IMG/VR virus record: IMGVR_UViG_3300035670_007376
Coordinates: 18,905 to 82,904 of that record
Direction: 5' to 3' (one strand)
DNA from: a virus
Lineage: Duplodnaviria > Heunggongvirae > Uroviricota > Caudoviricetes
DNA: 64,000 nt
Part shown: in pieces, positions 3,700 through 31,876 of the stretch
Layout of the letters: each line of letters starts with the position of its first letter
How positions within the stretch are numbered: the first letter of the stretch is position 1
Notes under the pieces: model-generated
The model's database searches: none
Told to the model about the DNA's origin: nothing
What the model saw: only the letters and a program-made list of their open reading frames with translations
Made by a program: the position numbers and the translations under genes

Positions 3700-3707
3700 T
3701 TATTAGT

Positions 3708-7456: not shown

Positions 7457-8135
7457 AGTTGTTACATTTTACGCAATCGAATTACCCAATGTTGAGTCGG
7501 TAATCGGATATCAAAAAAAAGTATTTAATCATTTCGGTTTGGACATTGAACAAATACCGTTTACAGATAAATTACCACACCCACATAGTGAAGCGATGAC
7601 AAATTATTTGTCAAATAACCAATGGGATAGTGTATCGATATTCGATGTCGATTCAGTTGTAACCTCAAGTGAAACTATTGAAAGAGCAATTGATTTAATT
7701 AGTGATAAAAATACGATTTACGGTAACGCACAGGCAACACATAACGAACTTCCATTTGCTGCACCAAACTTTTTGAATTTAACAAGAGAAGTTTGGGATA
7801 GGACTTTAGAGATTTGGAATAAGGACCAAGATTTACATAGGGACATTTTCAGATATCAAACTTACCATAAAGATGGGAAAGAAATTATTTGTGATGTGGC
7901 AGAGAGATTCAATATTGAACATAGGAAAATAGGTACTAAAATATTGGTATCTTATCCAGTAAAGAATGAGGGAATACCTGAATGGAAATATACTGGAGGA
8001 AATGGATATAAGGATTTTGAATGGGGAAATGGAACATGGTTTGACAGTAAAACTTTTCACGGTAGTGAAATAAGATATCCACATAAACAACAAGTGTTTT
8101 TTGATATTTGTGAAAAAATTTTAAATAATGGGTAA
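7446..8135 (+). CDS. hypothetical protein
   Basis: 229-aa ORF packed in the operon. Confidence 0.45.
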   Translation: MNHKVVTFYAIELPNVESVIGYQKKVFNHFGLDIEQIPFTDKLPHPHSEAMTNYLSNNQWDSVSIFDVDSVVTSSETIERAIDLISDKNTIYGNAQATHNELPFAAPNFLNLTREVWDRTLEIWNKDQDLHRDIFRYQTYHKDGKEIICDVAERFNIEHRKIGTKILVSYPVKNEGIPEWKYTGGNGYKDFEWGNGTWFDSKTFHGSEIRYPHKQQVFFDICEKILNNG

Positions 8136-9003
8136 GGAAATATATTTTCTTAGTTTTTACACCACAGGTGACGGTGCACCGGACTTAACCCATGTTGCAA
8201 ATGAAGTTAAAGAGAAACTATCAACGTACTTCACCGAAATGTTCATTTATAACAAAGAAACTTTAAAACAATTACCAAACAGCGAAGATATTTGTAATGT
8301 TTTCGAAGAACCTACAGATATGACATATTTTCCATATGCACATAAAATGGGTTACTATGATTGGAAAGCATTTTTGATTGATTACACACTAAAGAATATA
8401 CCCGAAAATTCAATCTTGTTATATCACGATATTAATTTTGAAAAGTACCCAAATTATTGGCAAAGTGATTGGGAAAACATATATGATGTTTGTGATGGGT
8501 TTTTAAAAGAAAATGAAAGTGATATATGGGCGAAGTTTGAGTTACATGATTTTTATCTTAAAAAATCAATGAAAACGTACGCAATCGATAAAGTTTTTAC
8601 AGACCCAATACAAAATGATGTGGTTAAAAATTCACTACAAATAAATTCTAGTCAAGTTGTATTAAAAAATACAAGTTTCTCTAAAGAATTTGCAAAAGAT
8701 TGGTTATATTTTACTAGAGATTGGGATATTACACATCCATCACCAAATCCAAATCGTCACCCCGAATCGGAAATAATCGGGTGTCCTGACCAAGATTCGA
8801 TGCAATGTGCACTATACCAAAGAATATTTGACGGTAGGTTGAAACCCACATTCCCAACATATGGATTACATTGGAGGGTGATGAGAACTGATACTATTGT
8901 GTTTAATATGAAGGGTATGGAATGTAAAACCGGTCCATATCGTTTAGAAAATAAAGCGGTTATAAATTATTTTAAAAATAAAACAAATGAGGAAGTTTTC
9001 TGA
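8128..9003 (+). CDS. hypothetical protein
   Basis: 291-aa ORF packed in the operon. Confidence 0.45.
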   Translation: MGKEIYFLSFYTTGDGAPDLTHVANEVKEKLSTYFTEMFIYNKETLKQLPNSEDICNVFEEPTDMTYFPYAHKMGYYDWKAFLIDYTLKNIPENSILLYHDINFEKYPNYWQSDWENIYDVCDGFLKENESDIWAKFELHDFYLKKSMKTYAIDKVFTDPIQNDVVKNSLQINSSQVVLKNTSFSKEFAKDWLYFTRDWDITHPSPNPNRHPESEIIGCPDQDSMQCALYQRIFDGRLKPTFPTYGLHWRVMRTDTIVFNMKGMECKTGPYRLENKAVINYFKNKTNEEVF

Positions 9004-9730
9004 AAACAGTAATCTATACCTATTGGACCCCATTCCAGTATGGAAACGAAAATTAACCGATGATGAGGTTGGTTGTTCGTTAGAAGAATTTAATGAAAAA
9101 TTATTAAAAATTGCTAGACAATATTACGATGAGTGGCAATTAGAGGTTCCTGATGAAAGACATTATTTAGACAAATCAATAATGGCTGAGGAGGAATACG
9201 ATAGGATGAATAAAAGAGAAATATTCACACAAGCAAATTATCCTGCAGTTGGTAAGTGGCATTTAGTCCCGACCAATAATTTCTTTAAAGTCAATGAACC
9301 AGAAGTAAACTTACTTAAAGAGATTATATTAAATGATTATAAAACGGCATTAACTGAGTATTTTGAATTCGAATTCGAGGGAAAACAAAAAAACAATTCT
9401 AATCACGTAATAGATGAGAGTTGGTTACAATTTTATAAAAATTCAGACTATAAAGTTTTACACAATCATTTACGTTATGATTTAGACCCAACTGAACACA
9501 GGAATATTTGGGCTGGTGGTTATTATATTAGTGACGGTGAACCAGACAAATATCAACCATATAGTGGTAGATTTTCATTTAACACTAGAAATAAATCATA
9601 TTTGATTAAACCTGAAACAGGAATGATTATGTTATGGCCAGGTGAAATTTTACATGAGGTACATCCGTTTTATGGGGCGAAAGAAAGGATTTGTATAAAT
9701 TTTAATTTAAGTACGAGAGAAGATGAATAA
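8987..9730 (+). CDS. 2OG-Fe(II) oxygenase-like cupin (TIGR02466-type)
   Basis: C-terminal GMIMLWPGEILHEVHPFYGAKERICINFNL matches the LWPSWLxHxV...RISISFN pattern. Confidence 0.5.
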   Translation: MRKFSENSNLYLLDPIPVWKRKLTDDEVGCSLEEFNEKLLKIARQYYDEWQLEVPDERHYLDKSIMAEEEYDRMNKREIFTQANYPAVGKWHLVPTNNFFKVNEPEVNLLKEIILNDYKTALTEYFEFEFEGKQKNNSNHVIDESWLQFYKNSDYKVLHNHLRYDLDPTEHRNIWAGGYYISDGEPDKYQPYSGRFSFNTRNKSYLIKPETGMIMLWPGEILHEVHPFYGAKERICINFNLSTREDE

Positions 9731-10346: not shown

Positions 10347-11131
10347 TGGAAGAGGTTAAATTATTTTGGAGTTTTGATAGTAGGATGAATCTTTATGGTG
10401 ATAATGAATATCTTTATGACCTTTATCGTGCATCAATGTTAAGGGCCAAAAAATTGGGGTACACAGTCCATTTTTACGGAGATAATTTCGCAATTGAAAA
10501 ATTCGGAGACGTTATTGACACACCTTTCGATATAACAGATAAACATTTCAACATCGTTGATGACTTGAAAACGTTTGTACACGAAGACCAAGATTTAAAT
10601 TGTGTCACGATTGATGGTGACTTAATATTACATGACAGATTGGTGTTTCCCGATTACGAAACTACACATGTTTATTTTGATTTTCCTGAAACAAAAAATG
10701 ATATATTAAAAGAGGAGAACAACATCTACAACGGTTATGGTGATTTGAAGAAGATGTTTGAAAAGTATAACACACATTATTTTTTTCCATCATTTAATTA
10801 TGACAATGATTTCGCTTGTAACACGGGACTAATCAAATTCAATAATCAAGAAACAAAAGATTTATTTCTTAATCAATTTAAATCACTAAAAAACTATTTT
10901 GTGGGTAATATTGAACCATATGAAAATGTTAACACTGAAGAAAGTAATTCTAAACTTAGAAAAATACGATTTATTATTGCTCAGTATCACTTCGGTTGTC
11001 TTTCTGCTACAAATAATATCCCTACAATTTTTCTAAAACAACATAACAATTATGTACATCTTTTTGGTAATGAAAAGTTCTACGACCACAATAAAGAAAT
11101 GATATATAAAATCATAGAAAACAATGGGTAA
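10346..11131 (+). CDS. hypothetical protein
   Basis: 261-aa ORF with ATG directly after the upstream stop. Confidence 0.45.
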   Translation: MEEVKLFWSFDSRMNLYGDNEYLYDLYRASMLRAKKLGYTVHFYGDNFAIEKFGDVIDTPFDITDKHFNIVDDLKTFVHEDQDLNCVTIDGDLILHDRLVFPDYETTHVYFDFPETKNDILKEENNIYNGYGDLKKMFEKYNTHYFFPSFNYDNDFACNTGLIKFNNQETKDLFLNQFKSLKNYFVGNIEPYENVNTEESNSKLRKIRFIIAQYHFGCLSATNNIPTIFLKQHNNYVHLFGNEKFYDHNKEMIYKIIENNG

Positions 11132-11858
11132 AAGAATATGTGCATTTAGTCAAACGTATGGAAATGATAGAGAAGAATTATATGAGTATCTAAAAAATGA
11201 TAATTCATCAATCAACTTCAGGAATTCGTTCGATTTAAATTTATATTCTTTTCACAATTCAAGTCGTGAATATATTGATAGGATTAAAAAAGAAGAGTAT
11301 TTCACAAAATTAAAAAATCTAAAACTAATAGAGTTTAATAATATTGAATACACTCATACGTTAAGAAACGTGTTATATGGACTATTAGATGAAGGGTACG
11401 ATTACATTTTTTATTTACAAGACGATTGTTTCACACATGAATCTCATCGAGATATAACAGACTTAATCGATTTTATAAAAAATGAAGACTTCAACATGTT
11501 ATATCTTGAGTCTGACGGTTACTATATAAACAGTGACACAATTAGGTTCAAAAAAGACACATTAACAGTATATGACACCACTACCCAAGACTTCTTTAAA
11601 CGAAATGGTTGGGGGATGGACGATGGTGCTTATATTGCTAACATAAAGTTCCTTTTGGATAAAGTTTATGACGAAAAGTACTTCTCAATCGGTTCAATAC
11701 AGAAAGCCGAACAACACCTCTCATCAAAGTTCTCAACTTTAAATTTAGAGAGATTAACACCCAATTTTAAATTATACAGAAGATTTAGTATCGTTGGACC
11801 AAATGCACATTGGGACGAATCAAAAGAAAGACAGATGTTGGTAGAAAAGTTCAAATAA
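11124..11858 (+). CDS. hypothetical protein
   Basis: 244-aa ORF packed in the operon. Confidence 0.45.
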   Translation: MGKRICAFSQTYGNDREELYEYLKNDNSSINFRNSFDLNLYSFHNSSREYIDRIKKEEYFTKLKNLKLIEFNNIEYTHTLRNVLYGLLDEGYDYIFYLQDDCFTHESHRDITDLIDFIKNEDFNMLYLESDGYYINSDTIRFKKDTLTVYDTTTQDFFKRNGWGMDDGAYIANIKFLLDKVYDEKYFSIGSIQKAEQHLSSKFSTLNLERLTPNFKLYRRFSIVGPNAHWDESKERQMLVEKFK

Positions 11859-11896
11859 ATTGACTTTTTCAATAAAATATCTTATATTCTCTTATT

Positions 11897-12334
11897 ATGA
11901 TATATTGGTTTACAGGTCAACCTGGTGCAGGAAAAACAACATTAGCTAAACACTTAGTAACGTTCCTTTCAAATACGGGTAAGGTCATTCACATTGACGG
12001 AGACGATTTGAGAGACATTTTCCAAAATAAGGATTATTCGGAAAATGGTCGACGTAAAAACATAGAAAGGGCTCAAGATATTGCCCAATTTATGAATGAA
12101 AAGGGTTACGATGTTGTGGTATCTTTAGTGTCACCATATAAAGACCAAAGAGAAGAATTAAAATTAAAAACATCGGTAATTGAAATATTTGTTCATACCT
12201 CAGAAGAACGAGGTCGTGAAAATTTTCATGTCATTAACTACGAAAAACCTGAAGAAAATTTTGTGGAAATGGATACCACAGAAAATTCTGATGTTGAATC
12301 GTTTATTGAATTAATTAGTAAAATAGATTTATGA
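11897..12334 (+). CDS. cysC: adenylyl-sulfate (APS) kinase, short form
   Basis: P-loop GQPGAGKTT, then HIDGDDLRD (CysC LDGDNVR). NGRRKNIERAQDIAQF...VVVSLVSPYKDQRE...IEIFVHTS follow the CysC layout. Confidence 0.65.
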   Translation: MIYWFTGQPGAGKTTLAKHLVTFLSNTGKVIHIDGDDLRDIFQNKDYSENGRRKNIERAQDIAQFMNEKGYDVVVSLVSPYKDQREELKLKTSVIEIFVHTSEERGRENFHVINYEKPEENFVEMDTTENSDVESFIELISKIDL

Positions 12335-12711
12335 GTAAAAAATATGCAATGTACGTGGGTCGTTGGCAAAATTGGCACAAAGGACACGAATGGTTAATTA
12401 GACAACAATTAGACCAAGGTAAAAATGTTTGGGTAGCAATTAGAGACGTTGAAGTGGATGAGAATAATCCCAAAACTGCTAGAGAAGTGTTCGATTCATT
12501 AATCACCGAACCATTCTTTAACGATAATTTTGATAAAATCCTTCTATCGATAATTCCTGATATTGAAAGTATCAATTATGGTAGAGGTGTTGGATATGAT
12601 GTTATTTACCATGAACCGCCGAGTGACATTGCAACAATCAGTGGTACTGCCATCCGTACTGGTCATATGACACCAGATGGTAAAATAAAATATGATGAAA
12701 CGAAAGGGTAA
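12331..12711 (+). CDS. HIGH-motif nucleotidyltransferase (cytidylyltransferase-like: TagD / RfaE-domain-II / NMNAT class)
   Basis: YVGRWQNWHKGHEWL is the (F)xGxFxxxHxGH motif and a C-terminal ISGTAIRTG (ISSTxIR-like) is present. 126 aa, like TagD. Confidence 0.6.
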   Translation: MSKKYAMYVGRWQNWHKGHEWLIRQQLDQGKNVWVAIRDVEVDENNPKTAREVFDSLITEPFFNDNFDKILLSIIPDIESINYGRGVGYDVIYHEPPSDIATISGTAIRTGHMTPDGKIKYDETKG

Positions 12712-12716
12712 TCTAT

Positions 12717-12938
12717 ATGATTGTAGAAAGAAAACGACATATTGCTAAAACAATTTCATATAGAGTTATATCTACGTTAATTGGGTTTGTTGTAATGTGG
12801 TGGGTAAGTGGGTCAGTTAAGGTTGGTGCGGTTTTCGGGGTTACGGAATTAATTTATAAACCCATTCAATACTATCTTCATGAAAGAATATGGTATAAAT
12901 GGGTAAAATATGGACTTAGAAGAGGTGAAAAATCGTAA
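12717..12938 (+). CDS. DUF2061-like small membrane protein
   Basis: KTISYRVISTLIGFVV...YYLHERIWYKW matches DUF2061, a domain otherwise found fused to or next to APS kinases. Confidence 0.55.
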   Translation: MIVERKRHIAKTISYRVISTLIGFVVMWWVSGSVKVGAVFGVTELIYKPIQYYLHERIWYKWVKYGLRRGEKS

Positions 12939-13392
12939 ATTAAAACTATTATTAAACTTTTTAAGTAAAGAAGAATGTATTAACATCATTAATGGTAGTT
13001 ACAATCTTGAGATTTTAAAGAATAGAATATTACGGGAAATTGAAAAAAATTTTGTAACACAATTTAAAGGTTTTTATATTGGAGACTTTGTTGATTTAAA
13101 AATTGAGAAATATAACACAGAACAAAAATATAAAGATTTTGAAAAGAAAGGGGATGAAACATACGTTTCGTTTTCATTACAATTAAATAGTAACTACGAA
13201 GATGGTTTTTTTCAGTTTTTAGTTGATGATGGAAATAGATACTTCCAAGTCCATCATGGTTTGGGACATCTCATTTTATATTTTTCTGACTTACCAAAAA
13301 GGACTACTCCGGTTACAAATGGGACTAAGTACACGTTGGTTGGGTCGTTACCATTAATTAAAAAAACTAATAATAAAAACACACTTTTATAA
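12910..13392 (+). CDS. P4H-like 2OG-Fe(II) oxygenase paralog with degenerate motifs
   Basis: It shares the N-terminal LSKEECINIING motif and the middle block VSFSLQLNSNYEDGFFQF with ORF 13392 (TTVIFQLNDEYEDGEIKY). The HxD motif is not evident. Confidence 0.4.
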   Translation: MDLEEVKNRKLKLLLNFLSKEECINIINGSYNLEILKNRILREIEKNFVTQFKGFYIGDFVDLKIEKYNTEQKYKDFEKKGDETYVSFSLQLNSNYEDGFFQFLVDDGNRYFQVHHGLGHLILYFSDLPKRTTPVTNGTKYTLVGSLPLIKKTNNKNTLL

Positions 13393-13961
13393 TGTTTCAC
13401 AAATTAATTGAAGATTATTTAACACCTGACGAATGTAATTTCATTATCAATATGGGTAAATCGATTGGGTTACATAAGATGACTTCAGCAAAATTTGTTA
13501 ACGGAATTTACGCCGAAACATCGTTAAATGAAGACACCAATAAAAGAAAGGGGTGTTATTTTGTTGAGAATGATTTGAATAAACCCCAAATAAAAATAAT
13601 ATCCGAAAGGATTGTAAAAACCTTAAATGATTTAAAAATTTTTAACGGATTAGTTTATCATACAATCCCTAAGTACTCCTTTAATGAGTATACTGAAGAT
13701 GATTTTTTAGATTGGCATTCGGATTCACATGAAATATTATATGGTGCATCAACTACTGTTATTTTTCAATTAAATGACGAATATGAAGATGGTGAAATCA
13801 AGTATTTAATTGAAGGTATTGAATATTCGGTACCAAAGAAATGTGGTAGTATCTTTATTTTCGACTCTAATATCCCACATTCAGTTGATAAAATAAAATC
13901 GGGTATTAGATATTCATTAAACGTTTGGCCATCATCAAAGAAAAAAACAAATTTACTATGA
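13392..13961 (+). CDS. prolyl-4-hydroxylase-like 2OG-Fe(II) oxygenase
   Basis: HSDSHE (HxD), PHSV (second His) and RYSLNVW (Arg) are in P4Hc order. N-terminal LTPDECNFIIN. Confidence 0.6.
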   Translation: MFHKLIEDYLTPDECNFIINMGKSIGLHKMTSAKFVNGIYAETSLNEDTNKRKGCYFVENDLNKPQIKIISERIVKTLNDLKIFNGLVYHTIPKYSFNEYTEDDFLDWHSDSHEILYGASTTVIFQLNDEYEDGEIKYLIEGIEYSVPKKCGSIFIFDSNIPHSVDKIKSGIRYSLNVWPSSKKKTNLL

Positions 13962-15202
13962 AAAAAATTGTAATTGTTGGTGGAGGTACTGCTGGTTGGT
14001 TAACATCATTAGTGGTAAATAAATTTTGGAAAAACACCACAATCACTATTGTGGAGAGTTCTAAAATTGGAATATTGGGAGCAGGAGAAGGTGGTACCTC
14101 CAACTTCGGTAAAATGTTATCATTATTAGACATTAATCAAAACGAATTTTTTGAGAAAACTAAATCAACTGTAAAAGGTGGATTGCATCTTTATAATTGG
14201 ACTGGTAAAAATGAACTATCTAAACATCTATTTTTTGGTGATAATCCAAATGAAACTAATAAATCTTACGCATACCATTTTGATGCTCGATTAGTTGCGA
14301 AATATTTTAAAGAAATTGCATTGAGTAGAGGGGTTGAATGGATTGACGGAGAAGTTGATGAAATTAAAAAAGAAAATGATAAAATTACCGAATTACATTT
14401 AAAAGATAACAGAGTAATAGAATTAGACTTTGTTTTTGACTGTAGTGGGTTTTCTAAAATCATAGTAGATGGTATACATAAAGAAGAATGGATTAGTTAT
14501 ACCAAATATCTTATGATGAACAAAGCGATTGTTTTCTTTTTACCGCAAGAAAATGAGTATAAATTAAATGACAAAACTTATACCGAAATGTTATCCATGG
14601 ATTGTGGTTGGATGTTTAAAATCCCATTGCAACATAGGTGGGGATGTGGGTACGTATTTAATGATAAGTATTTAACTGTGGAAGATGCAAAGAAAGAAGT
14701 GGAAAACCATTTAGGTCAAGAGGTTATATTACAAAACGTCTTTAATTTTAATCCTGGAACACATAAAAGAAGTTGGATTAGTAATAGTATATCGATAGGG
14801 TTATCATACGGTTTCATTGAACCTTTAGAGGCAACATCGTTGATGTCAACAATAATGCAACTAAAGAAATTAATTGATATTAATTTCGACGAGGGTAATA
14901 TGGACAAATACAATAATTGGTGTTATCAAATAAACGAACAGAATTTAAACTTTATAAGGTATCACTATTTGTGTGAAAGAGACGACACTCAATTTTGGAG
15001 AGACTGTACATCGATGCCGATACCTAACAAATTAAAAAAAATACTCGATAAAAACAATTCAATCATTGCCAAGAATGATGTGGAGTTACTAAAATTATTC
15101 GAATTAGAAGACATTACACCAAACGAACTTACATTTTTTGTGAAGAATTATTTGACAATATTTAAAAAGAATAAAAAATCGAACAAAAAAGAATTGATAT
15201 AA
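13958..15202 (+). CDS. flavin-dependent (tryptophan-type) halogenase
   Basis: MKKIVIVGGGTAGW...ILGAGEGGTSNF matches the PrnA/RebH N-terminus. The conserved Lys lies in STVKGGLHLYNW. GWMFKIPL is a WxWxIP variant with the second W replaced by F. The track start at 13925 is a TTG. The ATG at 13958 overlaps the upstream stop as ATGA. Confidence 0.7.
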   Translation: MKKIVIVGGGTAGWLTSLVVNKFWKNTTITIVESSKIGILGAGEGGTSNFGKMLSLLDINQNEFFEKTKSTVKGGLHLYNWTGKNELSKHLFFGDNPNETNKSYAYHFDARLVAKYFKEIALSRGVEWIDGEVDEIKKENDKITELHLKDNRVIELDFVFDCSGFSKIIVDGIHKEEWISYTKYLMMNKAIVFFLPQENEYKLNDKTYTEMLSMDCGWMFKIPLQHRWGCGYVFNDKYLTVEDAKKEVENHLGQEVILQNVFNFNPGTHKRSWISNSISIGLSYGFIEPLEATSLMSTIMQLKKLIDINFDEGNMDKYNNWCYQINEQNLNFIRYHYLCERDDTQFWRDCTSMPIPNKLKKILDKNNSIIAKNDVELLKLFELEDITPNELTFFVKNYLTIFKKNKKSNKKELI

Positions 15203-15203
15203 T

Positions 15204-15854
15204 ATGGAAAAAATGTATTTCGACGATAATACTTACATTTGGAAAACCAAACTAAATCTAAGTCATTTAAAAGAAAAAATTGTTTTAGAAGCAAAGGATG
15301 TGATTGATTCACAACCAGATATAAAGACGGATGGGTTTGCTTATAAAAAAGAAGATAAAAACATTAATTTTATGGGTGAAGTTACAATTAAAAATAATTT
15401 AGATGAGATTGTACAAACCGGTATAAATTTATGTAAAGAATTATATGAGGAAACAAAAACACCCTATAATAGAATAAACACCGATGCGTGGGTTAACGTA
15501 GTACGTTCAAAAAATCCTGTACAGTTACAGTTTAGACACGAAGAATTAAAACACGTTGATAAGTACCATGTACATACAGTCATTAATAAAGAAATGAATT
15601 CCTTCGTACCACACTATACATATGTTTATTATATACAGATGCCTAATATTATGGATGGGGACGACGGTGTGTTATATTTTAAAAATGAAAACAATGACGA
15701 ATTTTGGATTAGACCTGAGGAGGATGATTTAATAATAATGGAAGCAACTATGCCACATGCACCAAATAATGCACCACTGTCAACAAATGATAGAATTGTT
15801 ATGGCTGGTAATGTTGGGTTTGAGTATATCAAAAAAGAAAAATCATTAATATAA
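15204..15854 (+). CDS. 2OG-Fe(II) oxygenase-like cupin (TIGR02466-type)
   Basis: DGVLYFKNENNDEFWIRPEEDDLIIMEATMPHAPNN...DRIVMAGNVGF fits the G.l.F.dP...i.P..G.lvlFPs.l.H.V...eRISISFN pattern. Confidence 0.45.
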   Translation: MEKMYFDDNTYIWKTKLNLSHLKEKIVLEAKDVIDSQPDIKTDGFAYKKEDKNINFMGEVTIKNNLDEIVQTGINLCKELYEETKTPYNRINTDAWVNVVRSKNPVQLQFRHEELKHVDKYHVHTVINKEMNSFVPHYTYVYYIQMPNIMDGDDGVLYFKNENNDEFWIRPEEDDLIIMEATMPHAPNNAPLSTNDRIVMAGNVGFEYIKKEKSLI

Positions 15855-16645
15855 TGTTAATAGATAATAAATTCATTTATTTAAGTTTACCAAGATGTGC
15901 ATCCACGTCATTTCATTATTCTTGTATCTTAAATAATTTAGACGTTAAAACTTGTGATGACGGTTGGACAAAAGAGAATAGTAATATTGACTTCACCAAA
16001 ATAAATAAAGTTGATATAATGAATTACATCTACCATGGACATGAAAGTTTGACTGATTTACAGTTAAAATTTGGTTCAGAATTTCCAATTATTGCGGTTA
16101 GAAGAGAAAGACATGAAAGGTTCTTTTCACTTTATAAACATATTTTATCAGATTTTAAAAGATTTGGTTTAGATGATTTTTATGATTTATTTTCTAAATT
16201 AACAGTAGATGAATTGTTTTTCTTTACTAAAAATGACCTATTAACCAAAAAATCAATTTGGACAAAAATTTTCACTTTTTTAGTCGATAGAGGATTGTTT
16301 GATAAAAACATGACAATGGATAAGGTGATTGCACCAATGAAGAAAAGGGGTGACTACTACAGACAAGATAAAAACCTCTATATAATCAACATATTAGAAA
16401 TCCTACTAACCCCAATATCAACATTAACAAACAATAGTAATAAAATTATTTGGTTTGACTTCAATAGAATGGGTGAAATGGAAGAATGGGTTTCAAATAT
16501 TACACGTAAACCGTTTAAGTTAGAATCTGTGAATTCAAGTAAACACATTGAATGTAGAATTGAGTTTAATGATGAATTTATTATGAAATACGATGAGATT
16601 TATGATTTTTATGATTTACAAAAAGAAAAAATAACACTAATATAA
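15854..16645 (+). CDS. sulfotransferase-like protein
   Basis: 5'-PSB-like LSLPRCASTSFHY and a 3'-PB-like VRRERHERFFSLY (R...S). Confidence 0.45.
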   Translation: MLIDNKFIYLSLPRCASTSFHYSCILNNLDVKTCDDGWTKENSNIDFTKINKVDIMNYIYHGHESLTDLQLKFGSEFPIIAVRRERHERFFSLYKHILSDFKRFGLDDFYDLFSKLTVDELFFFTKNDLLTKKSIWTKIFTFLVDRGLFDKNMTMDKVIAPMKKRGDYYRQDKNLYIINILEILLTPISTLTNNSNKIIWFDFNRMGEMEEWVSNITRKPFKLESVNSSKHIECRIEFNDEFIMKYDEIYDFYDLQKEKITLI

Positions 16646-18400: not shown

Positions 18401-18967
18401 GTGAATTATATCATAAACAATAATTTTTGTGATAAAGAGCAAGCCAATAAAATAATTGATTTTTGTATTAAATTTGGTGAACCCTTTTCATATGTTCCAA
18501 CGGAAAGTTGGGATTGTAGAAGGGTTTATGATAATAAATTTAAAGAGGAGATTATTAATTTATTGGTAGATAAGTATAGAAACGGTGATTTTAAATTATG
18601 GTTCGACTATAACACATTCAATCTAAAGAATTTCAATATTAGTTTAACGTCATATTATGACGGGAGATATCTTAATTTACATAAAGATAAAACAAGTGAA
18701 TTGACAACCGTTATTGTTTTATCTGAAGATTTTGAAGGTGGAAATTTTGTATTAACTGAAGACAAAAATCCACCTTTTCATTTTGAGACATTATCGGGTT
18801 TAACTTTATGTGATTTGAAACTCGGAGACTCCATTTCATTTAATGGTAGTGAAACGTACCATGGAGTTTTACCAGTAACTAAAGGAAAAAGAATTGCTCT
18901 AAACATATGGATGACCGAAACTGATTTTAACTACCCAAAAATTAAAAAAACTGAAACATTATTATGA
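18401..18967 (+). CDS. prolyl-4-hydroxylase-like 2OG-Fe(II) oxygenase
   Basis: LHKDKT (HxD), ETYHGV (His) and RIALNIW (Arg). The start is a GTG at 18401 and the 5' end is uncertain. Confidence 0.55.
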   Translation: MNYIINNNFCDKEQANKIIDFCIKFGEPFSYVPTESWDCRRVYDNKFKEEIINLLVDKYRNGDFKLWFDYNTFNLKNFNISLTSYYDGRYLNLHKDKTSELTTVIVLSEDFEGGNFVLTEDKNPPFHFETLSGLTLCDLKLGDSISFNGSETYHGVLPVTKGKRIALNIWMTETDFNYPKIKKTETLL

Positions 18968-19479
18968 GAATATTAATTATCTCATTACCAAGAACAGGTT
19001 CAACCTCCTTATTAAATAAGATTTCCAAAGAAAAAAAATTACAACCCCTATTTGAACCTTTTGATGGTTCTGGAAGAACACTATATTCGGATGATTTAAA
19101 GAATATCGTTCTAAAAACAATTGTATGTGAACAACACCCCAAAGACGTCGACAACTATATGGAGTGGATTACAAATTTTTCCAAAACATTTGATGAGGTG
19201 ATTTTATTGTCAAGAAAAGATTTAATTGCATGTGCTGAAAGTCATTCATATTGTGTCTTTAATAAAAGTAAAGGATTTACTTCATATAATAATTATTTGT
19301 GGGAAAAAACACCAATCGATGAAATTTGTTATAATAATGTAATCAAGTGGGATGGTTTTTTAAAAGAACTATCCATTAAATTAAAGACTCCGATTACATA
19401 TTATGAAGACATTTATGATATTAATAGTGAGGAAAGATTAAGAAAAGGTAATAAACCATCTAATCTAAATTTGATATAA
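18964..19479 (+). CDS. sulfotransferase (Sulfotransfer_3/Stf0-like)
   Basis: MRILIISLPRTGSTSLLNKI (5'-PSB loop) and LLSRKDLIACAES (3'-PB R...S). Confidence 0.6.
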   Translation: MRILIISLPRTGSTSLLNKISKEKKLQPLFEPFDGSGRTLYSDDLKNIVLKTIVCEQHPKDVDNYMEWITNFSKTFDEVILLSRKDLIACAESHSYCVFNKSKGFTSYNNYLWEKTPIDEICYNNVIKWDGFLKELSIKLKTPITYYEDIYDINSEERLRKGNKPSNLNLI

Positions 19480-20126
19480 TGAAAATTGCATTATTAACTT
19501 CCGCCAGAAGTGGGTCAACCAGTTTATTTCATTTATTTGAGGAGATGTTAAATCCACATAATTATATTTGCATTTCTGAACCATTTAACTCTTTTTGGAG
19601 AGTTCCGTCAGGATTGAAATTATATGATACTTCATTTTTTGAAAAAAAAGAAAACATTTTTATCAAAACATTTATCAGCGATTTACAAATACCAAAAGAA
19701 TTTAAAGAGGATAATAATTTATATTGGGATTGGTTTTTTAGTTACTTTGATAAGGTGATTATTTTAGATAGAAAAAATAAAGACTTACAAAGTGAAAGCT
19801 TAACATATCATTTAAAAAGTAAAGATTTCTATAGTTGGCAAAAAAAACAATTTTACGATTTATCTAAAATAGAAAAAGAGGAAATTGAAAATAATAAAAA
19901 TATTTTAATACAAGAATCAAAAAAGAAATACCTTTTTTCACAAAGAGGATATCCTCTCTACTATTTTGAGGATTTATTCATTAATAAAAACATGGAAATA
20001 ATTGAAAGTTTGTTTAACTATTTAAATTTAGAACCAAAAAAAGACCTCATTGAAAAATACATAATTTCCGATTCATTTAAAATTAGAATTAACAGCAACG
20101 ACGAACGATTCAAATCTATTATATAG
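19479..20126 (+). CDS. sulfotransferase (tandem paralog)
   Basis: MKIALLTSARSGSTSLFHLF and ILDRKNKDLQSES. Same architecture as ORF 18964. Confidence 0.6.
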   Translation: MKIALLTSARSGSTSLFHLFEEMLNPHNYICISEPFNSFWRVPSGLKLYDTSFFEKKENIFIKTFISDLQIPKEFKEDNNLYWDWFFSYFDKVIILDRKNKDLQSESLTYHLKSKDFYSWQKKQFYDLSKIEKEEIENNKNILIQESKKKYLFSQRGYPLYYFEDLFINKNMEIIESLFNYLNLEPKKDLIEKYIISDSFKIRINSNDERFKSII

Positions 20127-23940: not shown

Positions 23941-24596
23941 GTACTTTAGATAAAATAGCGAAATCGTTCGGAACCGATAAATCTTCCGATAACCACAATT
24001 ACTGTGTTAAATATGAAAAATACTTACCATTTAAACGATATGATAAGTTAAATATTTTAGAAATTGGTGTGTTGGATGGTAAATCACTCCTAACTTGGAA
24101 AGAATATTACTACCGTTCTAACATATTAGGTATTGATATTAATCCTGATTGTAAGAAATATGAAGAGGATAGGATAAAAGTTGAAATTGGTTCACAGGAT
24201 GACCACGTTTTTTTAAATGATATCATGAGAGAATATGGTCCTTTTGATATGATATTAGATGATGGGTCACATATGAATGAACACATGATTTATTCTTTTG
24301 AACACTTGTTCCAATCCGTTAAATCGGGTGGTGTCTACGTAATTGAGGATATTGGTTGTTCCTATTGGTCTGATTATGGTGGAGGATACTTGAATCAAAA
24401 CTCGGCAGTTGAATATTTTAAAAGACTCTCTGATGATGTTAATTTTAGAGGGTTAATGAATATGAATCACACTAATGTACACGCAAGAAGAGAAGACGTA
24501 TTAGTTGAATTATCAAAACAAGTCCAACCAGGTTGTGTGACAAATATAGAATCAATAAACTTTCTAAATGGAATTATTATTATAACTAAACGATAA
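23937..24596 (+). CDS. class I SAM-dependent O-methyltransferase (CmcI/rhamnosyl-O-MTase-like)
   Basis: FGTDKSSDNHNY...ILEIGVLDGKSLLTWKEYY...ILGIDIN...MILDDGSH. Confidence 0.55.
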   Translation: MSTLDKIAKSFGTDKSSDNHNYCVKYEKYLPFKRYDKLNILEIGVLDGKSLLTWKEYYYRSNILGIDINPDCKKYEEDRIKVEIGSQDDHVFLNDIMREYGPFDMILDDGSHMNEHMIYSFEHLFQSVKSGGVYVIEDIGCSYWSDYGGGYLNQNSAVEYFKRLSDDVNFRGLMNMNHTNVHARREDVLVELSKQVQPGCVTNIESINFLNGIIIITKR

Positions 24597-26728
24597 TGGG
24601 ATATACTTTTGATGATGATGTTTTTATAATCGATTGTTGGTTGGATACAGAGGAAAAAGAGAAAACTCTTTTGAACTTAATAAATCGAGTTAAAATTTTT
24701 AACGTACCAATAATATTATGTGGACATTATCCTGTTAAACCGGAGATACAAAAAGAAGTTGATTATTTTTTATATGATAAGAATAATGATATTCTATTAG
24801 AAAAAGATTTTAACGAATACGGAGTTGTTAGTGATAGATGGACGATAATGAACAATTATAAAATCTTCAACAAAGTAGATTTCCATCATGACTATGCAAT
24901 ATGGATAACGATGAGAAATGCTTTTAATTTAGCAAAACAACTCGGTAAAAAATATATCCATTTTTTGGAATACGATAATTTACCCGACGAGGTACAATAT
25001 CGACAATCATTCATGGAATATGTTAGAAGTTTTGATGCGGTTGTCCTTGAGTATTCTGAAGGTTCCACCAAAGAAAGTCAACCATACAGTTCTACCTATA
25101 TATTTTCAATAAAGACCGATATTGCTGTCGAGTTAATTTCTAAGATTAACACTAAAGAGGAATATTTTAAAAATAGACCCAATGGATGGCAATTAGAGAA
25201 AGTTTTTTATCAAACGTTAAAAACAATAACGAATAATGTTTTTGTCAGTAAGTACATACCAAATGATGAGGAATTAAACATATATGCGGCTTGGAATAGA
25301 AATGGTATCTTAAGAAATGGTGCTCGTTTCCAAACTTATTTGGCGGTGGATAACCATAACAAACTTTACGTTCATTTTATTTCAGGGTTTTCCGAAAAGC
25401 CGGCCGATAAAGATTATCTTGTTGAGATAAATTACCATGACAGGAATCTTTTTTATAAGGTGGGTAAAGATACATATTCATTAGAATCATTAGGTGATTA
25501 TAAACAAGGAGAAACGGTTAAAGTTTTTTATCAGGGAGTTGAGGTATTCAAACAAGAGTTAAAAGACGATTTGGAAACATTTAAACGTAAGAACACTTTA
25601 GTTTGGAATACTGATAAATCCAATCTTAAAGTCAACATCAATTTTGTTGACGGACCATTTGTTGAGATTTTGAATGACATTGACTATAGATACTTAGTCC
25701 AATTTGTAGACAAAAAAAATGGTCAAATCGTTTATCAAACAGAACTTAGAAGTAACCATTGGGCCAAAGCTTCTCAAAAATATTATATCGAATGGGAAAT
25801 TAGAATCAAAGGAATTGATAACGATTACGAAGGTGTGTATCAATTCAACCCAAAAGGTAAAAGATTTTTAATAAGTTTTGAAACAAAATCATTGGGGGAT
25901 AACATAGCATTCATACCTTATGTCGATAAGTTTGCAAAGGAAAATGAATGTGAAGTAATTTGTACAACATTCCACAATGATTTATTTAAAGAACAATATC
26001 CTAATATCACTTTTGTTTTACCGGGTTCCACAGTTGATAATATATACGGTTTATACCGTTTAGGTATTTTTAATATTACAAATTCGGATAACACTAAAGA
26101 AATAAATTATGAATTCCACCCATATGACCCAATAAAAGAACCACTACAAAAAGTTGCGTCCGATATTTTAGGATTACAATATGAGGAAATACGACCTAAA
26201 TTACCAAAATTAGGTAAAAAAAAGAAAAAAATGGTGACCATTGCGGTTCACTCAACATCACAAGCAAAATATTGGAATAACAAAGGTGGATGGCAGGAGG
26301 TCGTTAATTATCTTAAATCCAAAGGTTATGAGGTTAGACTTTTATCCAAAGAAGAAGATGGTTACATGGGTAACATTAACCCCAAAGGAGTTACCCAACA
26401 ACCCGAAAGTACTGTTAGAGAAATATTAAAAACAATACAAGAATCTGAATTTTTTATTGGAATTAGTAGTGGTCTAAGTTGGTTGGCATGGGGTGGAGAA
26501 GTACCTGTTATTTTGATATCCGGATTCACAGACGTTTATTTGGAACCTTTTGAGGGTATCGAAAGAGTTATCAATAAAGAAGTTTGTCATGGATGTTGGC
26601 ACGTTTATGATTTTAATCCTGGTGATTGGTATTGGTGCCCCGTACATAAAAATACCGATAGACATTTTGAATGTTCAAAAGAAATCACACACCACAGTGT
26701 TATAGAGAAAATTGAAAAATTTTTATGA
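24596..26728 (+). CDS. two-domain protein with C-terminal GT9 (heptosyltransferase-like) domain
   Basis: C-terminus KKKKMVTIAVHSTSQAKYW...GISSGLSWLAWGGEVPVILISGFT matches the GT9 DSGpmHLAAAlGtPtvaLFG region. The N-terminal ~500 aa are unassigned. Confidence 0.5.
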   Translation: MGYTFDDDVFIIDCWLDTEEKEKTLLNLINRVKIFNVPIILCGHYPVKPEIQKEVDYFLYDKNNDILLEKDFNEYGVVSDRWTIMNNYKIFNKVDFHHDYAIWITMRNAFNLAKQLGKKYIHFLEYDNLPDEVQYRQSFMEYVRSFDAVVLEYSEGSTKESQPYSSTYIFSIKTDIAVELISKINTKEEYFKNRPNGWQLEKVFYQTLKTITNNVFVSKYIPNDEELNIYAAWNRNGILRNGARFQTYLAVDNHNKLYVHFISGFSEKPADKDYLVEINYHDRNLFYKVGKDTYSLESLGDYKQGETVKVFYQGVEVFKQELKDDLETFKRKNTLVWNTDKSNLKVNINFVDGPFVEILNDIDYRYLVQFVDKKNGQIVYQTELRSNHWAKASQKYYIEWEIRIKGIDNDYEGVYQFNPKGKRFLISFETKSLGDNIAFIPYVDKFAKENECEVICTTFHNDLFKEQYPNITFVLPGSTVDNIYGLYRLGIFNITNSDNTKEINYEFHPYDPIKEPLQKVASDILGLQYEEIRPKLPKLGKKKKKMVTIAVHSTSQAKYWNNKGGWQEVVNYLKSKGYEVRLLSKEEDGYMGNINPKGVTQQPESTVREILKTIQESEFFIGISSGLSWLAWGGEVPVILISGFTDVYLEPFEGIERVINKEVCHGCWHVYDFNPGDWYWCPVHKNTDRHFECSKEITHHSVIEKIEKFL

Positions 26729-28830: not shown

Positions 28831-28833
28831 AAG

Positions 28834-28862
28834 AAAGGGACTCAATTGAGTCCCTTTTTTAT
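28834..28862. terminator. bidirectional rho-independent terminator shared by convergent genes
   Basis: Perfect palindrome AAAGGGACTCAA|TTGAGTCCCTTT followed by TTTTTT on + and a T-rich tract on -. The minus-gene stop codon lies within the stem. Confidence 0.8.
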
Positions 28863-31044: not shown

Positions 31045-31046
31045 AA

Positions 31047-31628: not shown

Positions 31629-31639
31629 AATTTTAAACT

Positions 31640-31873
31640 TTAATAAGAATGTGTGTCTTTTATGTCTTTAGGTAATTTCCACCCTTTTTTAATACTTCTT
31701 AATCCAAGACAGGTTGTTAGGAAAAAGAATTGGAATAACCATAACCCTGTTACCCAACCACCTTTTTGCATCTCATCATAAAAATACAAAGCAAAACCAT
31801 TAAGGTAAATGATTAAAGATAAAAAGGTAATAATTTGTTCATTATTTTTCCAAAAATTAATAATATTTTTCAT
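31640..31873 (-). CDS. small membrane protein
   Basis: 77 aa with two hydrophobic segments. Confidence 0.4.
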   Translation of the reverse strand: MKNIINFWKNNEQIITFLSLIIYLNGFALYFYDEMQKGGWVTGLWLFQFFFLTTCLGLRSIKKGWKLPKDIKDTHSY

Positions 31874-31876
31874 AAT

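What the first reader, a model, noticed from the sequence alone, without database searches (positions are those of the whole stretch)
11897..12938. Compact sulfur-activation module: APS kinase + 126-aa HIGH nucleotidyltransferase + DUF2061
A short CysC-like APS kinase (GQPGAGKTT, HIDGDDLRD) is translationally coupled to a minimal HIGH-motif nucleotidyltransferase (GRWQNWHKGH, ISGTAIRTG). That gene is followed by a DUF2061 protein, a domain otherwise known mainly as a fusion or neighbour of APS kinases. With three sulfotransferases within 8 kb, this looks like a phage PAPS-supply unit for glycan sulfation. The nucleotidyltransferase is too small to be a classical ATP sulfurylase, but it belongs to the same HIGH superfamily. 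It could be a minimal sulfate or sugar-phosphate adenylyl/cytidylyltransferase. An alternative is RfaE-domain-II-like ADP-heptose synthesis feeding the GT9 domain at 24596..26728.
Basis: partly seen in the sequence, partly recalled or inferred. Interest (0 to 1): 0.7.

Follow-up and report, generated by a model that had tools for sequence, protein, structure and literature searches.

The report
Phage PAPS cassette with unclassified nucleotidyltransferase
A large uncultured phage carries a three-gene cassette (short APS kinase, tiny NMNAT-like nucleotidyltransferase, small membrane protein) that most likely makes the sulfate donor PAPS for glycan sulfation, and the tiny enzyme belongs to a widespread, unannotated family that may be an unrecognised kind of ATP sulfurylase.

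Summary
Three co-directional genes at 11897-12938 encode a lid-shortened APS kinase (Pfam E 1.9e-19), a 126-aa HIGH-motif nucleotidyltransferase (NT) overlapping it by ATGA, and a DUF2061 protein (E 1.6e-15). All three are under purifying selection.

The NT is not a classical ATP sulfurylase, TagD or RfaE-II. Its family profile is closest to archaeal NMN adenylyltransferase (E 2.6e-15), with about 25 residues missing from the core.

- The family is large: 772 clusters at 50% identity, 385 hits in a one-genome-per-species GTDB collection, at least 577 viral contigs.
- In 65 of 74 bacterial and archaeal loci the NT is fused or adjacent to an APS kinase, in both fusion orders.
- Sulfotransferases and capsule genes recur nearby.
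- No Sat, CysD or CysN motif occurs in about 2 Mb of flanks.
- Databases name the fusions only "adenylyl-sulfate kinase".
- DUF2061 partners the NT, not the kinase.

Best reading: a self-contained sulfate-to-PAPS cassette in which the NT replaces ATP sulfurylase. The kinase and PAPS part is well supported. The sulfurylase role is inferred (about 0.5). The DUF2061 role is unknown.

The parts
11860..11888 (+). Candidate sigma-70-like promoter (TTGACT-17-TATATT) in the 38-nt gap upstream of ORF1
   Evidence: (10 of 12 consensus matches). Promoter-like sites in this AT-rich region are no more frequent than in shuffles (19 found, 18 expected), so this is only a candidate.
11897..12334 (+). ORF1: short, lid-reduced APS kinase (CysC family), 145 aa
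   Evidence: Pfam APS_kinase E 1.9e-19 over residues 2-107. All best PDB hits are APS kinases, e.g. 7yq0 at E 4.6e-11. The P-loop, DGD, R/Y/R..N and SLVSPY motifs are kept, and about 18 lid residues plus the N-terminal extension are missing. Scores are below the NCBIfam cut-offs (68.6 bits versus 138.7). dN/dS 0.13-0.23.
12331..12711 (+). ORF2: 126-aa HIGH-motif nucleotidyltransferase of an unannotated NMNAT-related family; proposed sulfate adenylyltransferase
   Evidence: ATGA overlap with ORF1. Family profile versus MJ0541 NMNAT E 2.6e-15, with 33 NMNAT residues replaced by 8. AF2 model pLDDT 90.7. Only weak HIGH-superfamily fold hits, TM about 0.5. Invariant R11, H16, H19, G84, G88, S104, R109. 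Fused to APS kinase in both orders. Fused or adjacent to an APS kinase in 65 of 74 GTDB loci. dN/dS 0.07-0.13.
12717..12938 (+). ORF3: DUF2061 small membrane protein, 73 aa, with one roughly 36-residue hydrophobic stretch (probable helical hairpin)
   Evidence: Pfam DUF2061 E 1.6e-15. Hydropathy profile. Follows the NT gene in 8 of 8 related metagenome contigs, 54 of 80 viral loci and 6 GTDB loci. An NT-DUF2061 fusion exists, P0211. dN/dS 0.05-0.25.
15854..16645 (+). Probable PAPS-dependent sulfotransferase (263 aa), the likely consumer of the cassette's product
18964..19479 (+). Possible small sulfotransferase-like protein (171 aa), motif-level only
   Evidence: N-terminal LPRTGSTSL is conserved in its family. 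hhalign matches only that motif (probability 37-80%). No Pfam hit and no domain on any homolog.
19479..20126 (+). Possible sulfotransferase-like protein (215 aa), motif-level only
   Evidence: N-terminal ARSGSTS motif. No Pfam hit. hhalign is not informative.

Best explanation
The three genes form a self-contained sulfate-activation cassette inside a phage glycan-modification island. Step 1 (inferred): ORF2, a much-reduced nucleotidyltransferase descended from the archaeal NMNAT branch of the HIGH superfamily, transfers AMP from ATP onto sulfate to give APS. This is the job of ATP sulfurylase, done by a different protein family. Step 2 (well supported by homology): ORF1, an APS kinase with a shortened lid, phosphorylates the 3'-OH of APS to give PAPS. 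The ATGA overlap, and the fusions of the two domains in both orders in other genomes, suggest a complex that hands APS over directly, which would help because APS formation is energetically unfavourable. Step 3 (partly supported): PAPS is used by sulfotransferase(s) in the same island (15854-16645, perhaps 18964-20126) to sulfate a glycan built by the neighbouring glycosyltransferases. ORF3 (DUF2061) is a small membrane hairpin that partners the NT specifically. The simplest guess is that it tethers APS synthesis to the inner membrane; its role is otherwise unknown.
For: Kinase: APS_kinase is by far the best family and the catalytic and APS-contact motifs are retained. The short-kinase type is at least as often near sulfotransferases as the canonical CysC type (19 of 30 versus 15 of 35 GTDB loci).

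NT-kinase link: among 150 representative clusters, 23 are APSK-NT and 13 are NT-APSK, and five of the proteins first scored as N-extended are truncated APSK-NT fusions. The fusion partners include canonical CysC domains at 230 and 189 bits. The NT is fused or adjacent to a kinase in 65 of 74 GTDB loci across many phyla.

Pathway context: recurrent neighbours are Sulfotransfer_5, _3 and _1 proteins plus capsule-type genes (Wzi confirmed by Pfam; Wzz/Wzx/Wza-like by inspection). CysQ-like motifs occur in two loci, in L077 directly downstream of the NT-APSK fusion. A phage-like contig has the order Sulfotransfer_3 - APSK - unknown - NT-DUF2061. A Verrucomicrobiota locus has Sulfotransfer_1 directly upstream of the NT.

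Pathway gap: no Sat (RNPxHxxH, GRDHAG), CysD (SGGKDS) or CysN (DTPGH) motif occurs in 1.03 Mb of GTDB flanks, 0.94 Mb of viral flanks or the window. By contrast, classical cysC sits next to or fused with cysDN or sat (established knowledge: the E. coli cysDNC operon, CysNC, Sat-CysC, PAPSS).

Catalytic competence: HxGH and ISxTxxR are invariant, and ORF2 has ISGT as in ATP sulfurylases (motif recalled from memory). Two family members weakly match colinear parts of Pfam ATP-sulfurylase.

Viral precedent: Moumouvirus Ma457 is predicted to be a classical bifunctional SAT/APS kinase and lies with a sulfotransferase in a glycan gene cluster (PMC10117803).

Consumer in the window: sulfotransferase fold for ORF 15854-16645.
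Against: There is no direct evidence for sulfate as the substrate. By sequence and fold the NT is closer to NMNAT, NadM and PPAT than to ATP sulfurylase, and it lacks the QxRN and GRDHAG sulfate-site motifs. The 'DIESxNYGR' segment may keep part of the NMNAT nicotinamide-contact motif (from memory; not verified), so NMN-like substrates are not excluded. In 32 of 80 viral loci the NT has no kinase within +-8 kb, and sulfotransferases are almost absent there. Three Nitrospiraceae loci pair the NT with a TrpD-like phosphoribosyltransferase instead. Whether genomes carrying the NT lack Sat/CysDN elsewhere could not be tested, and hosts may supply APS themselves. The motif scan for Sat/CysDN had no positive control. 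Loci from related genomes are not independent. The sulfotransferases in the window have no Pfam support.
Confidence: 0.5

Rival explanations
1. Only the kinase matters for PAPS. The host supplies APS through its own Sat or CysDN, and the NT has an accessory role bound to the kinase, for example nucleotide binding or regulation, scaffolding, or handling of PAP or PPi, rather than making APS.
For: Many bacteria already make APS for assimilation (established knowledge), so adding cysC would be enough for sulfation. Phage cysC alone is a known auxiliary gene (PMC10914622). The NT lacks the sulfate-site motifs of classical ATP sulfurylase, and ATP sulfurylase is not among its best sequence or fold matches.
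Against: The catalytic HxGH and ISxTxxR residues and R11 are invariant across the family, and dN/dS is about 0.1, so an active enzyme is expected. Independent fusions in both orders and near-obligate adjacency point to consecutive steps. NT-DUF2061 pairs exist without any kinase, so the NT has a function of its own.
Confidence: 0.15
2. A NadR/PnuC-like NAD salvage module. The NT is a true NMN (or NaMN) adenylyltransferase, the P-loop kinase phosphorylates a riboside precursor, and DUF2061 helps uptake at the membrane.
For: The closest characterised relatives of the NT are archaeal NMNAT and NadM. The kinase + NMNAT + membrane-protein arrangement mirrors NadR/PnuC (established knowledge). Kinase-less NT-DUF2061 pairs sit among housekeeping-type phage genes. 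Nitrospiraceae pair the NT with a phosphoribosyltransferase-family protein.
Against: The partner kinases are APS kinases, many of them canonical CysC at up to 230 bits, and the short ones keep the APS-contact motifs. Neighbours are sulfotransferases and capsule genes, not NAD genes. The NT lacks about 25 core residues of NMNAT and scores far below the NMNAT family cut-offs (24.8 bits versus 127).
Confidence: 0.13
3. The pair makes a different 3'-phosphorylated nucleoside-diphospho donor by the same logic as PAPS, in the way Campylobacter makes 3'-phospho-CDP-phosphoramidate with Cj1416 and the CysC homolog Cj1415 (recalled from memory, not checked here), or in the way PPAT and dephospho-CoA kinase make CoA.
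For: 'Nucleotidyltransferase then 3'-kinase' is a general logic. The short kinase has an altered lid, which could go with an altered substrate. JGI sometimes labels the NT 'phosphopantetheine adenylyltransferase', and PPAT is among the fold and profile hits.
Against: The same NT family also pairs with fully canonical CysC. PAPS-type sulfotransferases are the recurrent neighbours. No glutamine-kinase-like or amidohydrolase-like MeOPN genes turned up among the window ORFs scanned.
Confidence: 0.1
4. One reading: an RfaE-domain-II / HldC-like heptose-1-phosphate adenylyltransferase feeding the GT9 protein at 24596-26728.
For: A GT9 domain is present. A PfkB, RfaE-I-like kinase neighbours the NT in 8 GTDB loci (cluster 14), mostly on the opposite strand.
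Against: HldC is a weak structural match (TM 0.39, ranks 32-45) and is absent from the 60 best of 79 profile matches shown. The NT's constant partner is an APS kinase, not a heptose kinase. No GmhA-, GmhB- or HldA-like gene was found among the island ORFs scanned.
Confidence: 0.03

Closest known systems
Bifunctional PAPS synthases: animal PAPSS (APS kinase - ATP sulfurylase) and bacterial or fungal Sat-CysC (ATP sulfurylase - APS kinase)
   Same: A two-step sulfate activation unit in which an adenylyl-transferring HIGH/HxxH enzyme is physically coupled to an APS kinase, with fusions known in both orders. The NT family shows the same two fusion orders with APS kinase.
   Different: The transferase here is about 115-130 aa and derives from the NMNAT branch. 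It has no PUA-like domain and no QxRN or GRDHAG motifs, and it does not match Pfam ATP-sulfurylase. Its sulfurylase activity is inferred, not shown.
Moumouvirus australiensis Ma457 (predicted classical SAT/APS kinase, 642 aa) with Ma461 (sulfotransferase) in a giant-virus glycosylation cluster (PMC10117803)
   Same: A virus-encoded sulfate-activation enzyme and a sulfotransferase embedded in a glycan gene cluster. There too, sulfation of a glycan is proposed and not demonstrated.
   Different: That is a eukaryotic giant virus using what is predicted to be the classical bifunctional enzyme. Here a phage uses three small separate genes (145 + 126 + 73 aa) with a non-classical transferase and a membrane partner.
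Archaeal NMN adenylyltransferase / NadM (MJ0541, PDB 1f9a; M. thermautotrophicus NMNAT, PDB 1hyb)
   Same: Closest characterised homologs. They share GR(F/W)QPxHxGH, NPFT, DIE, GYE and SGTxIR, and in many family members the C-terminal 'W..LVP' helix.
   Different: About 25 residues of the NMNAT core are missing: 33 residues are replaced by an 8-residue loop carrying the invariant G84 and G88 and the nearly invariant R85. R38/D39 replace the GSAQ segment. ORF2 also lacks the C-terminal helix. Scores are far below family cut-offs. The genomic partners are APS kinases and sulfotransferases, not NAD genes.
Phage-encoded cysC 'auxiliary metabolic genes' (e.g. PMC10914622)
   Same: ORF1 is the kind of gene counted there as phage cysC. 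That paper reports that cysC-encoding phages tend to have large genomes, as appears to be the case here.
   Different: Those surveys read cysC as assimilatory sulfate reduction and do not mention an NT or DUF2061 partner. Here the context points to PAPS for sulfotransferases.
Xylella phage Sano gp35-type 'kinase' (phrog_10255)
   Same: A fused short-APS-kinase + NT protein in cultured siphophages, about 30% identical to ORF2 over the NT half. The PHROG matches ORF1 with its N-terminal half and ORF2 with its C-terminal half.
   Different: It is one polypeptide, has no DUF2061 neighbour, and has no sulfotransferase annotated within the 12 kb examined. Its function is equally unknown.

Membership tests
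APS kinase (CysC, Pfam PF01583) | Family HMM above the curated threshold | tested here: met
   70.6 bits versus gathering score 21.1, E 1.9e-19. All top PDB hits are APS kinases.
APS kinase (CysC, Pfam PF01583) | Walker A P-loop, the DGD motif, and the APS-contact residues (R after DGD, aromatic in GFS, R..N, S-x-x-S-P loop) | tested here: met
   GQPGAGKTT, DGDDLR, DYSENGRRKNI and SLVSPY align with canonical CysC. The residue roles are from established knowledge of APS kinase structures.
APS kinase (CysC, Pfam PF01583) | Full-length lid (RDxKGLYKKARxGEIxxFTGI) and N-terminal extension | tested here: not met
   About 18 lid residues and about 25 N-terminal residues are absent. The Pfam match covers only model positions 4-115 of 152.
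APS kinase (CysC, Pfam PF01583) | NCBIfam equivalog-level score | tested here: not met
   TIGR00455 68.6 bits versus cut-off 138.7. PRK05541 70.4 bits versus 127.
APS kinase (CysC, Pfam PF01583) | APS 3'-phosphotransferase activity | not testable with these tools
   Needs an enzyme assay or cysC complementation.
Classical ATP sulfurylase (Sat/MET3, Pfam PF01747) | Family HMM match | tested here: not met
   ORF2 has no PF01747 hit. There are only sub-threshold partial hits in two relatives, P0151 and P0224. No ATP sulfurylase is among the 60 best of 79 profile matches shown.
Classical ATP sulfurylase (Sat/MET3, Pfam PF01747) | HxxH motif and ISGTxxR motif | tested here: met
   H16-K-G-H19 and I103-S-G-T-A-I-R109. 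Both motifs are shared with the wider HIGH superfamily, so this is weak evidence.
Classical ATP sulfurylase (Sat/MET3, Pfam PF01747) | QxRNPxHxxH sulfate-binding register, GRDHAG loop, PUA-like N-terminal domain | tested here: not met
   ORF2 has GRWQNWHKGH and YGRGVGY instead, and has no N-terminal domain (126 aa in total). The motif definitions are from memory of published ATP sulfurylase structures.
Archaeal NMNAT / NadM (TIGR01527, NF002243) | Family HMM above the curated cut-off | tested here: not met
   24.8 bits versus 127, and 20.8 bits versus 181.2.
Archaeal NMNAT / NadM (TIGR01527, NF002243) | Complete core between 'DIE' and 'GYEV' (about 33 residues in MJ0541) | tested here: not met
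   Replaced by about 8 residues. The AF2 model shows only three core strands followed by an extended loop.
Archaeal NMNAT / NadM (TIGR01527, NF002243) | NMN-binding residues | tested here: inconclusive
   The family has DIESxNYGR where NMNAT has DIExNxxW. The NMNAT contact residues are recalled from memory and could not be verified (one search found no usable source).
DUF2061 (Pfam PF09834) | Family HMM above threshold; small hydrophobic membrane protein | tested here: met
   57.7 bits versus gathering score 23.1, covering profile positions 1-51 of 52. Hydrophobic stretch at residues 13-48.
RfaE domain II / HldC heptose-1-phosphate adenylyltransferase | Sequence or fold closest to HldC, with a heptose-pathway context | tested here: not met
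   HldC TM 0.39, ranked behind NMNAT and PPAT. Not among the 60 profile matches shown. No heptose genes were found among the island ORFs scanned.
PAPS-dependent sulfotransferase (for ORF 15854-16645) | Sulfotransferase fold with a 5'-PSB loop and a 3'-PB R-x7-S motif | tested here: met
PAPS-dependent sulfotransferase (for ORF 15854-16645) | Pfam sulfotransferase HMM match | tested here: not met
   No hit even at E up to 10. hhalign to verified sulfotransferase clusters matches only the N-terminal motif.

The most novel reading that the evidence does not exclude
The NT family is a third, previously unrecognised type of ATP sulfurylase (besides Sat and CysDN), derived from NMNAT by loss of part of the core. 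Together with APS kinase it forms a novel minimal PAPS synthase used by many uncultured bacteria (Marinimicrobia, Omnitrophota, Planctomycetota), some archaea and hundreds of phages. In the phage lineage, DUF2061 completes a fully autonomous sulfate-to-PAPS cassette, either by tethering the enzyme at the membrane or by admitting sulfate, so that phages can sulfate glycans even in hosts that do not activate sulfate.
Probability: 0.4. Interest if true: 0.85.

Novelty: new variant of a known kind. Interest (0 to 1): 0.72.

Why it matters
Only two enzyme families are known to activate sulfate, Sat and CysDN. A third, very small one would change how sulfur assimilation and sulfation capacity are read from genomes and metagenomes, because these proteins are currently annotated as 'hypothetical' or merged into 'adenylyl-sulfate kinase'. 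It would also change the reading of phage 'cysC' auxiliary genes, from boosting host cysteine synthesis to supplying PAPS for sulfated surface glycans. That bears on phage-host recognition and on sulfated polysaccharides in the ocean. A PAPS synthase of about 270 residues would also be useful for enzymatic sulfation in biotechnology. Finally, it gives DUF2061, a widespread domain of unknown function, its first specific partner.

Tried and rejected
- DNA-level search of 11000-14000 against cultured phages found nothing. Two other window proteins gave at most a 17%-coverage hit, so the phage has no close cultured relative.
- ORF2 alone against PDB sequences gave only noise. A family profile was needed.
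- Foldseek on the ORF2 model placed it in the HIGH superfamily but could not discriminate the substrate: TM about 0.5 to PPAT and NMNAT, with ATP sulfurylases at ranks 11, 27 and 40.
A 10-sequence alignment worked.
- I first argued that the NMN pocket is deleted. I withdrew this after noticing that the deletion lies after the 'DIE.N' segment, so NMN binding is not excluded by sequence.
- Literature searches for DUF2061 function, for NT-APS kinase fusions and for a non-orthologous ATP sulfurylase found nothing relevant.
- The promoter-like element upstream of ORF1 is not above chance for this AT-rich region.
- Rejected: the RfaE-II/HldC reading, a TagD-like reading (TagD E 0.063), and ORF1 as a thymidylate, gluconate or zeta-type kinase.
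Full report
**1. What is in the sequence**

ORF1 and ORF2 overlap by ATGA. ORF3 starts 5 nt after the ORF2 stop, and the next ORF (12910) overlaps the end of ORF3. A TTGACT-17-TATATT element lies in the 38-nt gap before ORF1, but such matches are no more frequent here than in shuffled sequence.

The window reads as a large uncultured phage:
- GC content is about 30%.
- It encodes a collagen-like tail fibre, an endolysin-like peptidase and a DNA methyltransferase.
- The first ~26.7 kb form a glycan-modification island on one strand, with an epimerase, a carbamoyltransferase, GT2, GT7C, GT4 and GT9 glycosyltransferases, an FkbM methyltransferase, several 2OG-Fe(II) oxygenases and a tryptophan halogenase.
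- Viral contigs of up to 287-298 kb carry an 80-88% identical ORF2 in a similar arrangement.
- No cultured phage is close.

**2. The three proteins**

ORF1 is an APS-kinase-family protein.
- Pfam APS_kinase scores E 1.9e-19, and the next family is ten orders of magnitude weaker.
- All best PDB sequence hits are APS kinases.
- Aligned with canonical CysC domains, it keeps the P-loop, the DGD motif, the Arg/aromatic/Arg..Asn residues and the S-x-x-S-P loop.
- It lacks the N-terminal extension and about 18 residues of the lid. This explains why the Pfam match stops at model position 115 of 152, and why the NCBIfam equivalog cut-offs are missed.

ORF3 is a clear DUF2061 protein (E 1.6e-15) with one hydrophobic stretch of about 36 residues.

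ORF2 on its own is barely recognisable: CTP_transf_like E 0.088, and NMNAT models at E 1e-5 but far below their cut-offs.
- It belongs to a large, highly conserved family, with 4,661 hits in the 90%-clustered database, the best 120 of which are at least 83% identical. There are 772 clusters at 50% identity.
- A profile of the family matches the archaeal NMN adenylyltransferase MJ0541 at E 2.6e-15 at both ends (GRFQPFHKGH ... NPFT ... DIE // GYEV ... SGTEIR). The 33 NMNAT residues in between are replaced by 8, carrying the nearly invariant 'YGR.VGY'.
- A confident AlphaFold model (pLDDT 90.7) finds only weak HIGH-superfamily matches covering about 80 residues: PPAT, NMNAT, NadM, and further down ATP sulfurylases and HldC.
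- ORF2 is therefore a reduced, unclassified offshoot of the NMNAT branch. It is not TagD, not RfaE-II and not a classical ATP sulfurylase.

All three genes are under purifying selection (dN/dS 0.05-0.25).

**3. What the relatives show**

- *Fusions.* Among the 150 best representative clusters, 23 are APS-kinase-NT fusions and 13 are NT-APS-kinase fusions. Five of the proteins first scored as N-extended are truncated kinase-NT fusions. The fused kinases include fully canonical CysC domains (230 and 189 bits). One protein is an NT-DUF2061 fusion. Cultured Xylella, Xanthomonas and Stenotrophomonas phages carry a fused short-kinase-NT protein; the corresponding family, phrog_10255, matches ORF1 with its N-terminal half and ORF2 with its C-terminal half.
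- *Adjacency.* A scan of one genome per GTDB species found 385 relatives. In the 74 loci with a callable NT ORF, 65 have an APS kinase fused or within two genes. The kinase is canonical (~200 aa) in 35 loci and the short ORF1 type in 30. The loci span Marinimicrobia, Omnitrophota, Planctomycetota, Bacteroidota, Acidobacteriota and some archaea.
- *Neighbours.* The most recurrent neighbour families include three to four sulfotransferase families, confirmed by Pfam as Sulfotransfer_5, _3 and _1. The rest are capsule and polysaccharide genes: Wzi by Pfam, Wzz-, Wzx- and Wza-like by inspection, plus aminotransferases and epimerases. Sulfotransferases occur in 19 of 30 short-kinase loci and 15 of 35 canonical-kinase loci. 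A CysQ-like motif lies directly after one NT-APSK fusion. A phage-like contig has the order Sulfotransfer_3 - APS kinase - unknown - NT-DUF2061.
- *What is missing.* No hallmark motif of Sat, CysD or CysN occurs in 1.03 Mb of GTDB flanks, 0.94 Mb of viral flanks or the window. This scan used motifs quoted from memory and had no positive control.
- *Annotation.* Databases call the fusions just 'adenylyl-sulfate kinase' and the stand-alone NT 'hypothetical' or 'phosphopantetheine adenylyltransferase'. I found no paper on them.

**4. DUF2061**

That is not what the data show.
- DUF2061 follows the NT gene in 8 of 8 close metagenome contigs, in 54 of 80 viral loci, and in only 6 of the 74 GTDB loci, mostly Bacteroidota MAG contigs with the closest NT homologs.
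- In 32 viral loci there is no kinase within +-8 kb. Most of these carry the NT-DUF2061 pair among genes that look, from sequence motifs, like a UV-endonuclease, a membrane protein and a peptide deformylase.
- DUF2061 is therefore the NT's partner in a phage and Bacteroidota-associated sub-lineage.
- The few papers that mention DUF2061 only list it as a membrane protein of unknown function.

**5. Is there a PAPS consumer in the window?**

Pfam finds no sulfotransferase in the window, and hhalign sees only the N-terminal motif.
- This ORF carries a PSB-loop motif (PRCASTS) and an invariant R-x7-S pair.
- ORFs 18964-19479 and 19479-20126 have similar N-terminal motifs but no further support.
- So there is one supported consumer and two possible ones.

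**6. Mechanism**

The kinase half of the story is well supported: ORF1 makes PAPS from APS. The open question is the NT.

The simplest account of (a) obligate coupling and two-way fusion with APS kinases, (b) sulfotransferase-rich neighbourhoods, (c) the absence of any classical sulfurylase nearby, and (d) intact catalytic HxGH and ISxTxxR residues is that the NT makes APS from ATP and sulfate. That would make it a non-orthologous replacement of ATP sulfurylase, forming a minimal PAPS synthase with the kinase. The two fusion orders mirror animal PAPSS and bacterial Sat-CysC. Giant viruses place what is predicted to be a classical SAT/APS kinase next to a sulfotransferase in their glycan clusters (PMC10117803), which shows that viruses do carry both activation steps.

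Against this:
- There is no direct evidence for sulfate as the substrate.
- The NT's nearest relatives are NMNAT and PPAT.
- Part of the NMNAT substrate motif may survive in the family.
- Kinase-less NT-DUF2061 pairs exist, almost never with sulfotransferases (1 of 32 loci versus 12 of 48).
- Nitrospiraceae pair the NT with a TrpD-like phosphoribosyltransferase.
- Genome-wide absence of Sat/CysDN could not be checked.

I put the sulfurylase reading at about 0.5, with the rivals listed separately.

**7. Novelty**

Phage cysC is known, and is usually read as an assimilatory sulfate-reduction gene (PMC10914622). The PAPS pathway itself is textbook. What is new is the obligate NMNAT-derived partner enzyme, its breadth across bacteria, archaea and phages, its specific link to DUF2061, and the sulfation context rather than an assimilation context. 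I class this as a new variant of a known kind, with a realistic chance that it hides a new enzyme family for a central reaction of sulfur metabolism.

Noticed in passing
L101, L104, L106-L121, L125-L135 (viral loci; NT at about 8001 or as listed): In 32 of 80 viral loci there is no kinase within +-8 kb. Most of these carry the NT-DUF2061 pair in a conserved block: Hsp20-like, 58-aa protein, ~375-aa membrane/coiled-coil protein, sometimes a UV-endonuclease-like 295-aa protein, NT, DUF2061, 211-aa peptide deformylase (HEIDHLDG), sigma-factor-like protein. Gene identities here are from inspection of the sequences, not from HMM searches.
   Followed up: partly
L044, L052, L057, L058, L062, L063, L066, L068, L070, L075, L080 (GTDB loci, Omnitrophota/Planctomycetota): A conserved cluster: Sulfotransfer_3 (341 aa) - sulfotransferase-like (468 aa) - arginine-deiminase/DDAH-like (296 aa) - NT-APS-kinase fusion (~306 aa) - methyltransferase-like (256 aa, by inspection) - radical-SAM-like (485 aa, by inspection). 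It looks like a pathway for a sulfated small molecule or lipid.
   Followed up: partly
L061, L069, L088 (Nitrospiraceae): Here the NT (165-178 aa, with an N-terminal extension) has no kinase. It is followed by a Glycos_transf_3 (TrpD-like phosphoribosyltransferase family) protein, a DUF420 membrane protein and a radical-SAM-like protein. This may mean functional diversity within the NT family.
   Followed up: partly
P0158 (378 aa), P0205 (374 aa): NT domains carrying a ~240-aa N-terminal Cys-rich repeat region with HNH-like motifs and no Pfam hit. This may be a homing-endonuclease-type fusion to the NT gene.
   Followed up: no
P0161 (249 aa): An NT fused to DUF6717 (E 7.8e-34), another domain of unknown function.
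   Followed up: no
L142-L144, L147, L154, L162 (viral loci): A 112-113-aa gene sits between the kinase and the NT. The L142 copy is HAD-phosphatase-like by Pfam (E about 4e-4, below the gathering score). It could be a PAP or pyrophosphate phosphatase belonging to the same pathway.
   Followed up: partly
window 12910-15854: Directly after the triad come two 2OG-Fe(II)-oxygenase-like ORFs (12910-13392 weak, 13392-13961 at E 8.8e-9), a tryptophan-halogenase-family flavoenzyme (13925-15202, E 1.1e-88) and another weak oxygenase-like ORF (15204-15854). Halogenase and oxygenase genes are unusual company for a glycan island.
   Followed up: no
window 21223-26728: A 905-aa fusion of a GT4 glycosyltransferase with an FkbM methyltransferase, then a 219-aa methyltransferase, then a 710-aa protein whose C-terminal part is a GT9 (heptosyltransferase-family) domain.
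   Followed up: no
window 26794-36625: The GC-richest stretch (0.35-0.39) holds a 678-aa collagen-like tail-fibre gene with long antisense ORFs (394 and 177 aa), probably artefacts of the repeat. From 28842 to 36625 the coding strand and the GC skew flip, with two glycosyltransferases (phrog_2170) on the minus strand.
   Followed up: no
L001-L004 (636-kb JGI contig and relatives), locus position about 7196-9148: In a related genome the triad is followed by a 181-aa ORF and then a 650-aa protein with an intein-splicing domain. The host contig is 636 kb, either a very large phage or a cellular genome. A carbamoyltransferase and a DUF6734 protein are shared with the window (2650-5336).
   Followed up: no
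L009 (Xylella phage Sano, NC_042344.1, 9820-22125): The fused kinase-NT protein gp35 lies in an early-gene block. About 3 kb upstream is a gene annotated 'cysteine dioxygenase' (gp28), and a MazG-like pyrophosphatase (gp31) is also there. This is a possible sulfur or pyrophosphate link that I did not examine.
   Followed up: no
L019, L038, L046 (Marinimicrobia SCGC AAA160-I06): One single-cell genome carries at least three kinase-NT loci, two with canonical kinases and one with a short kinase. L019 also has a second NT on the opposite strand.
   Followed up: no
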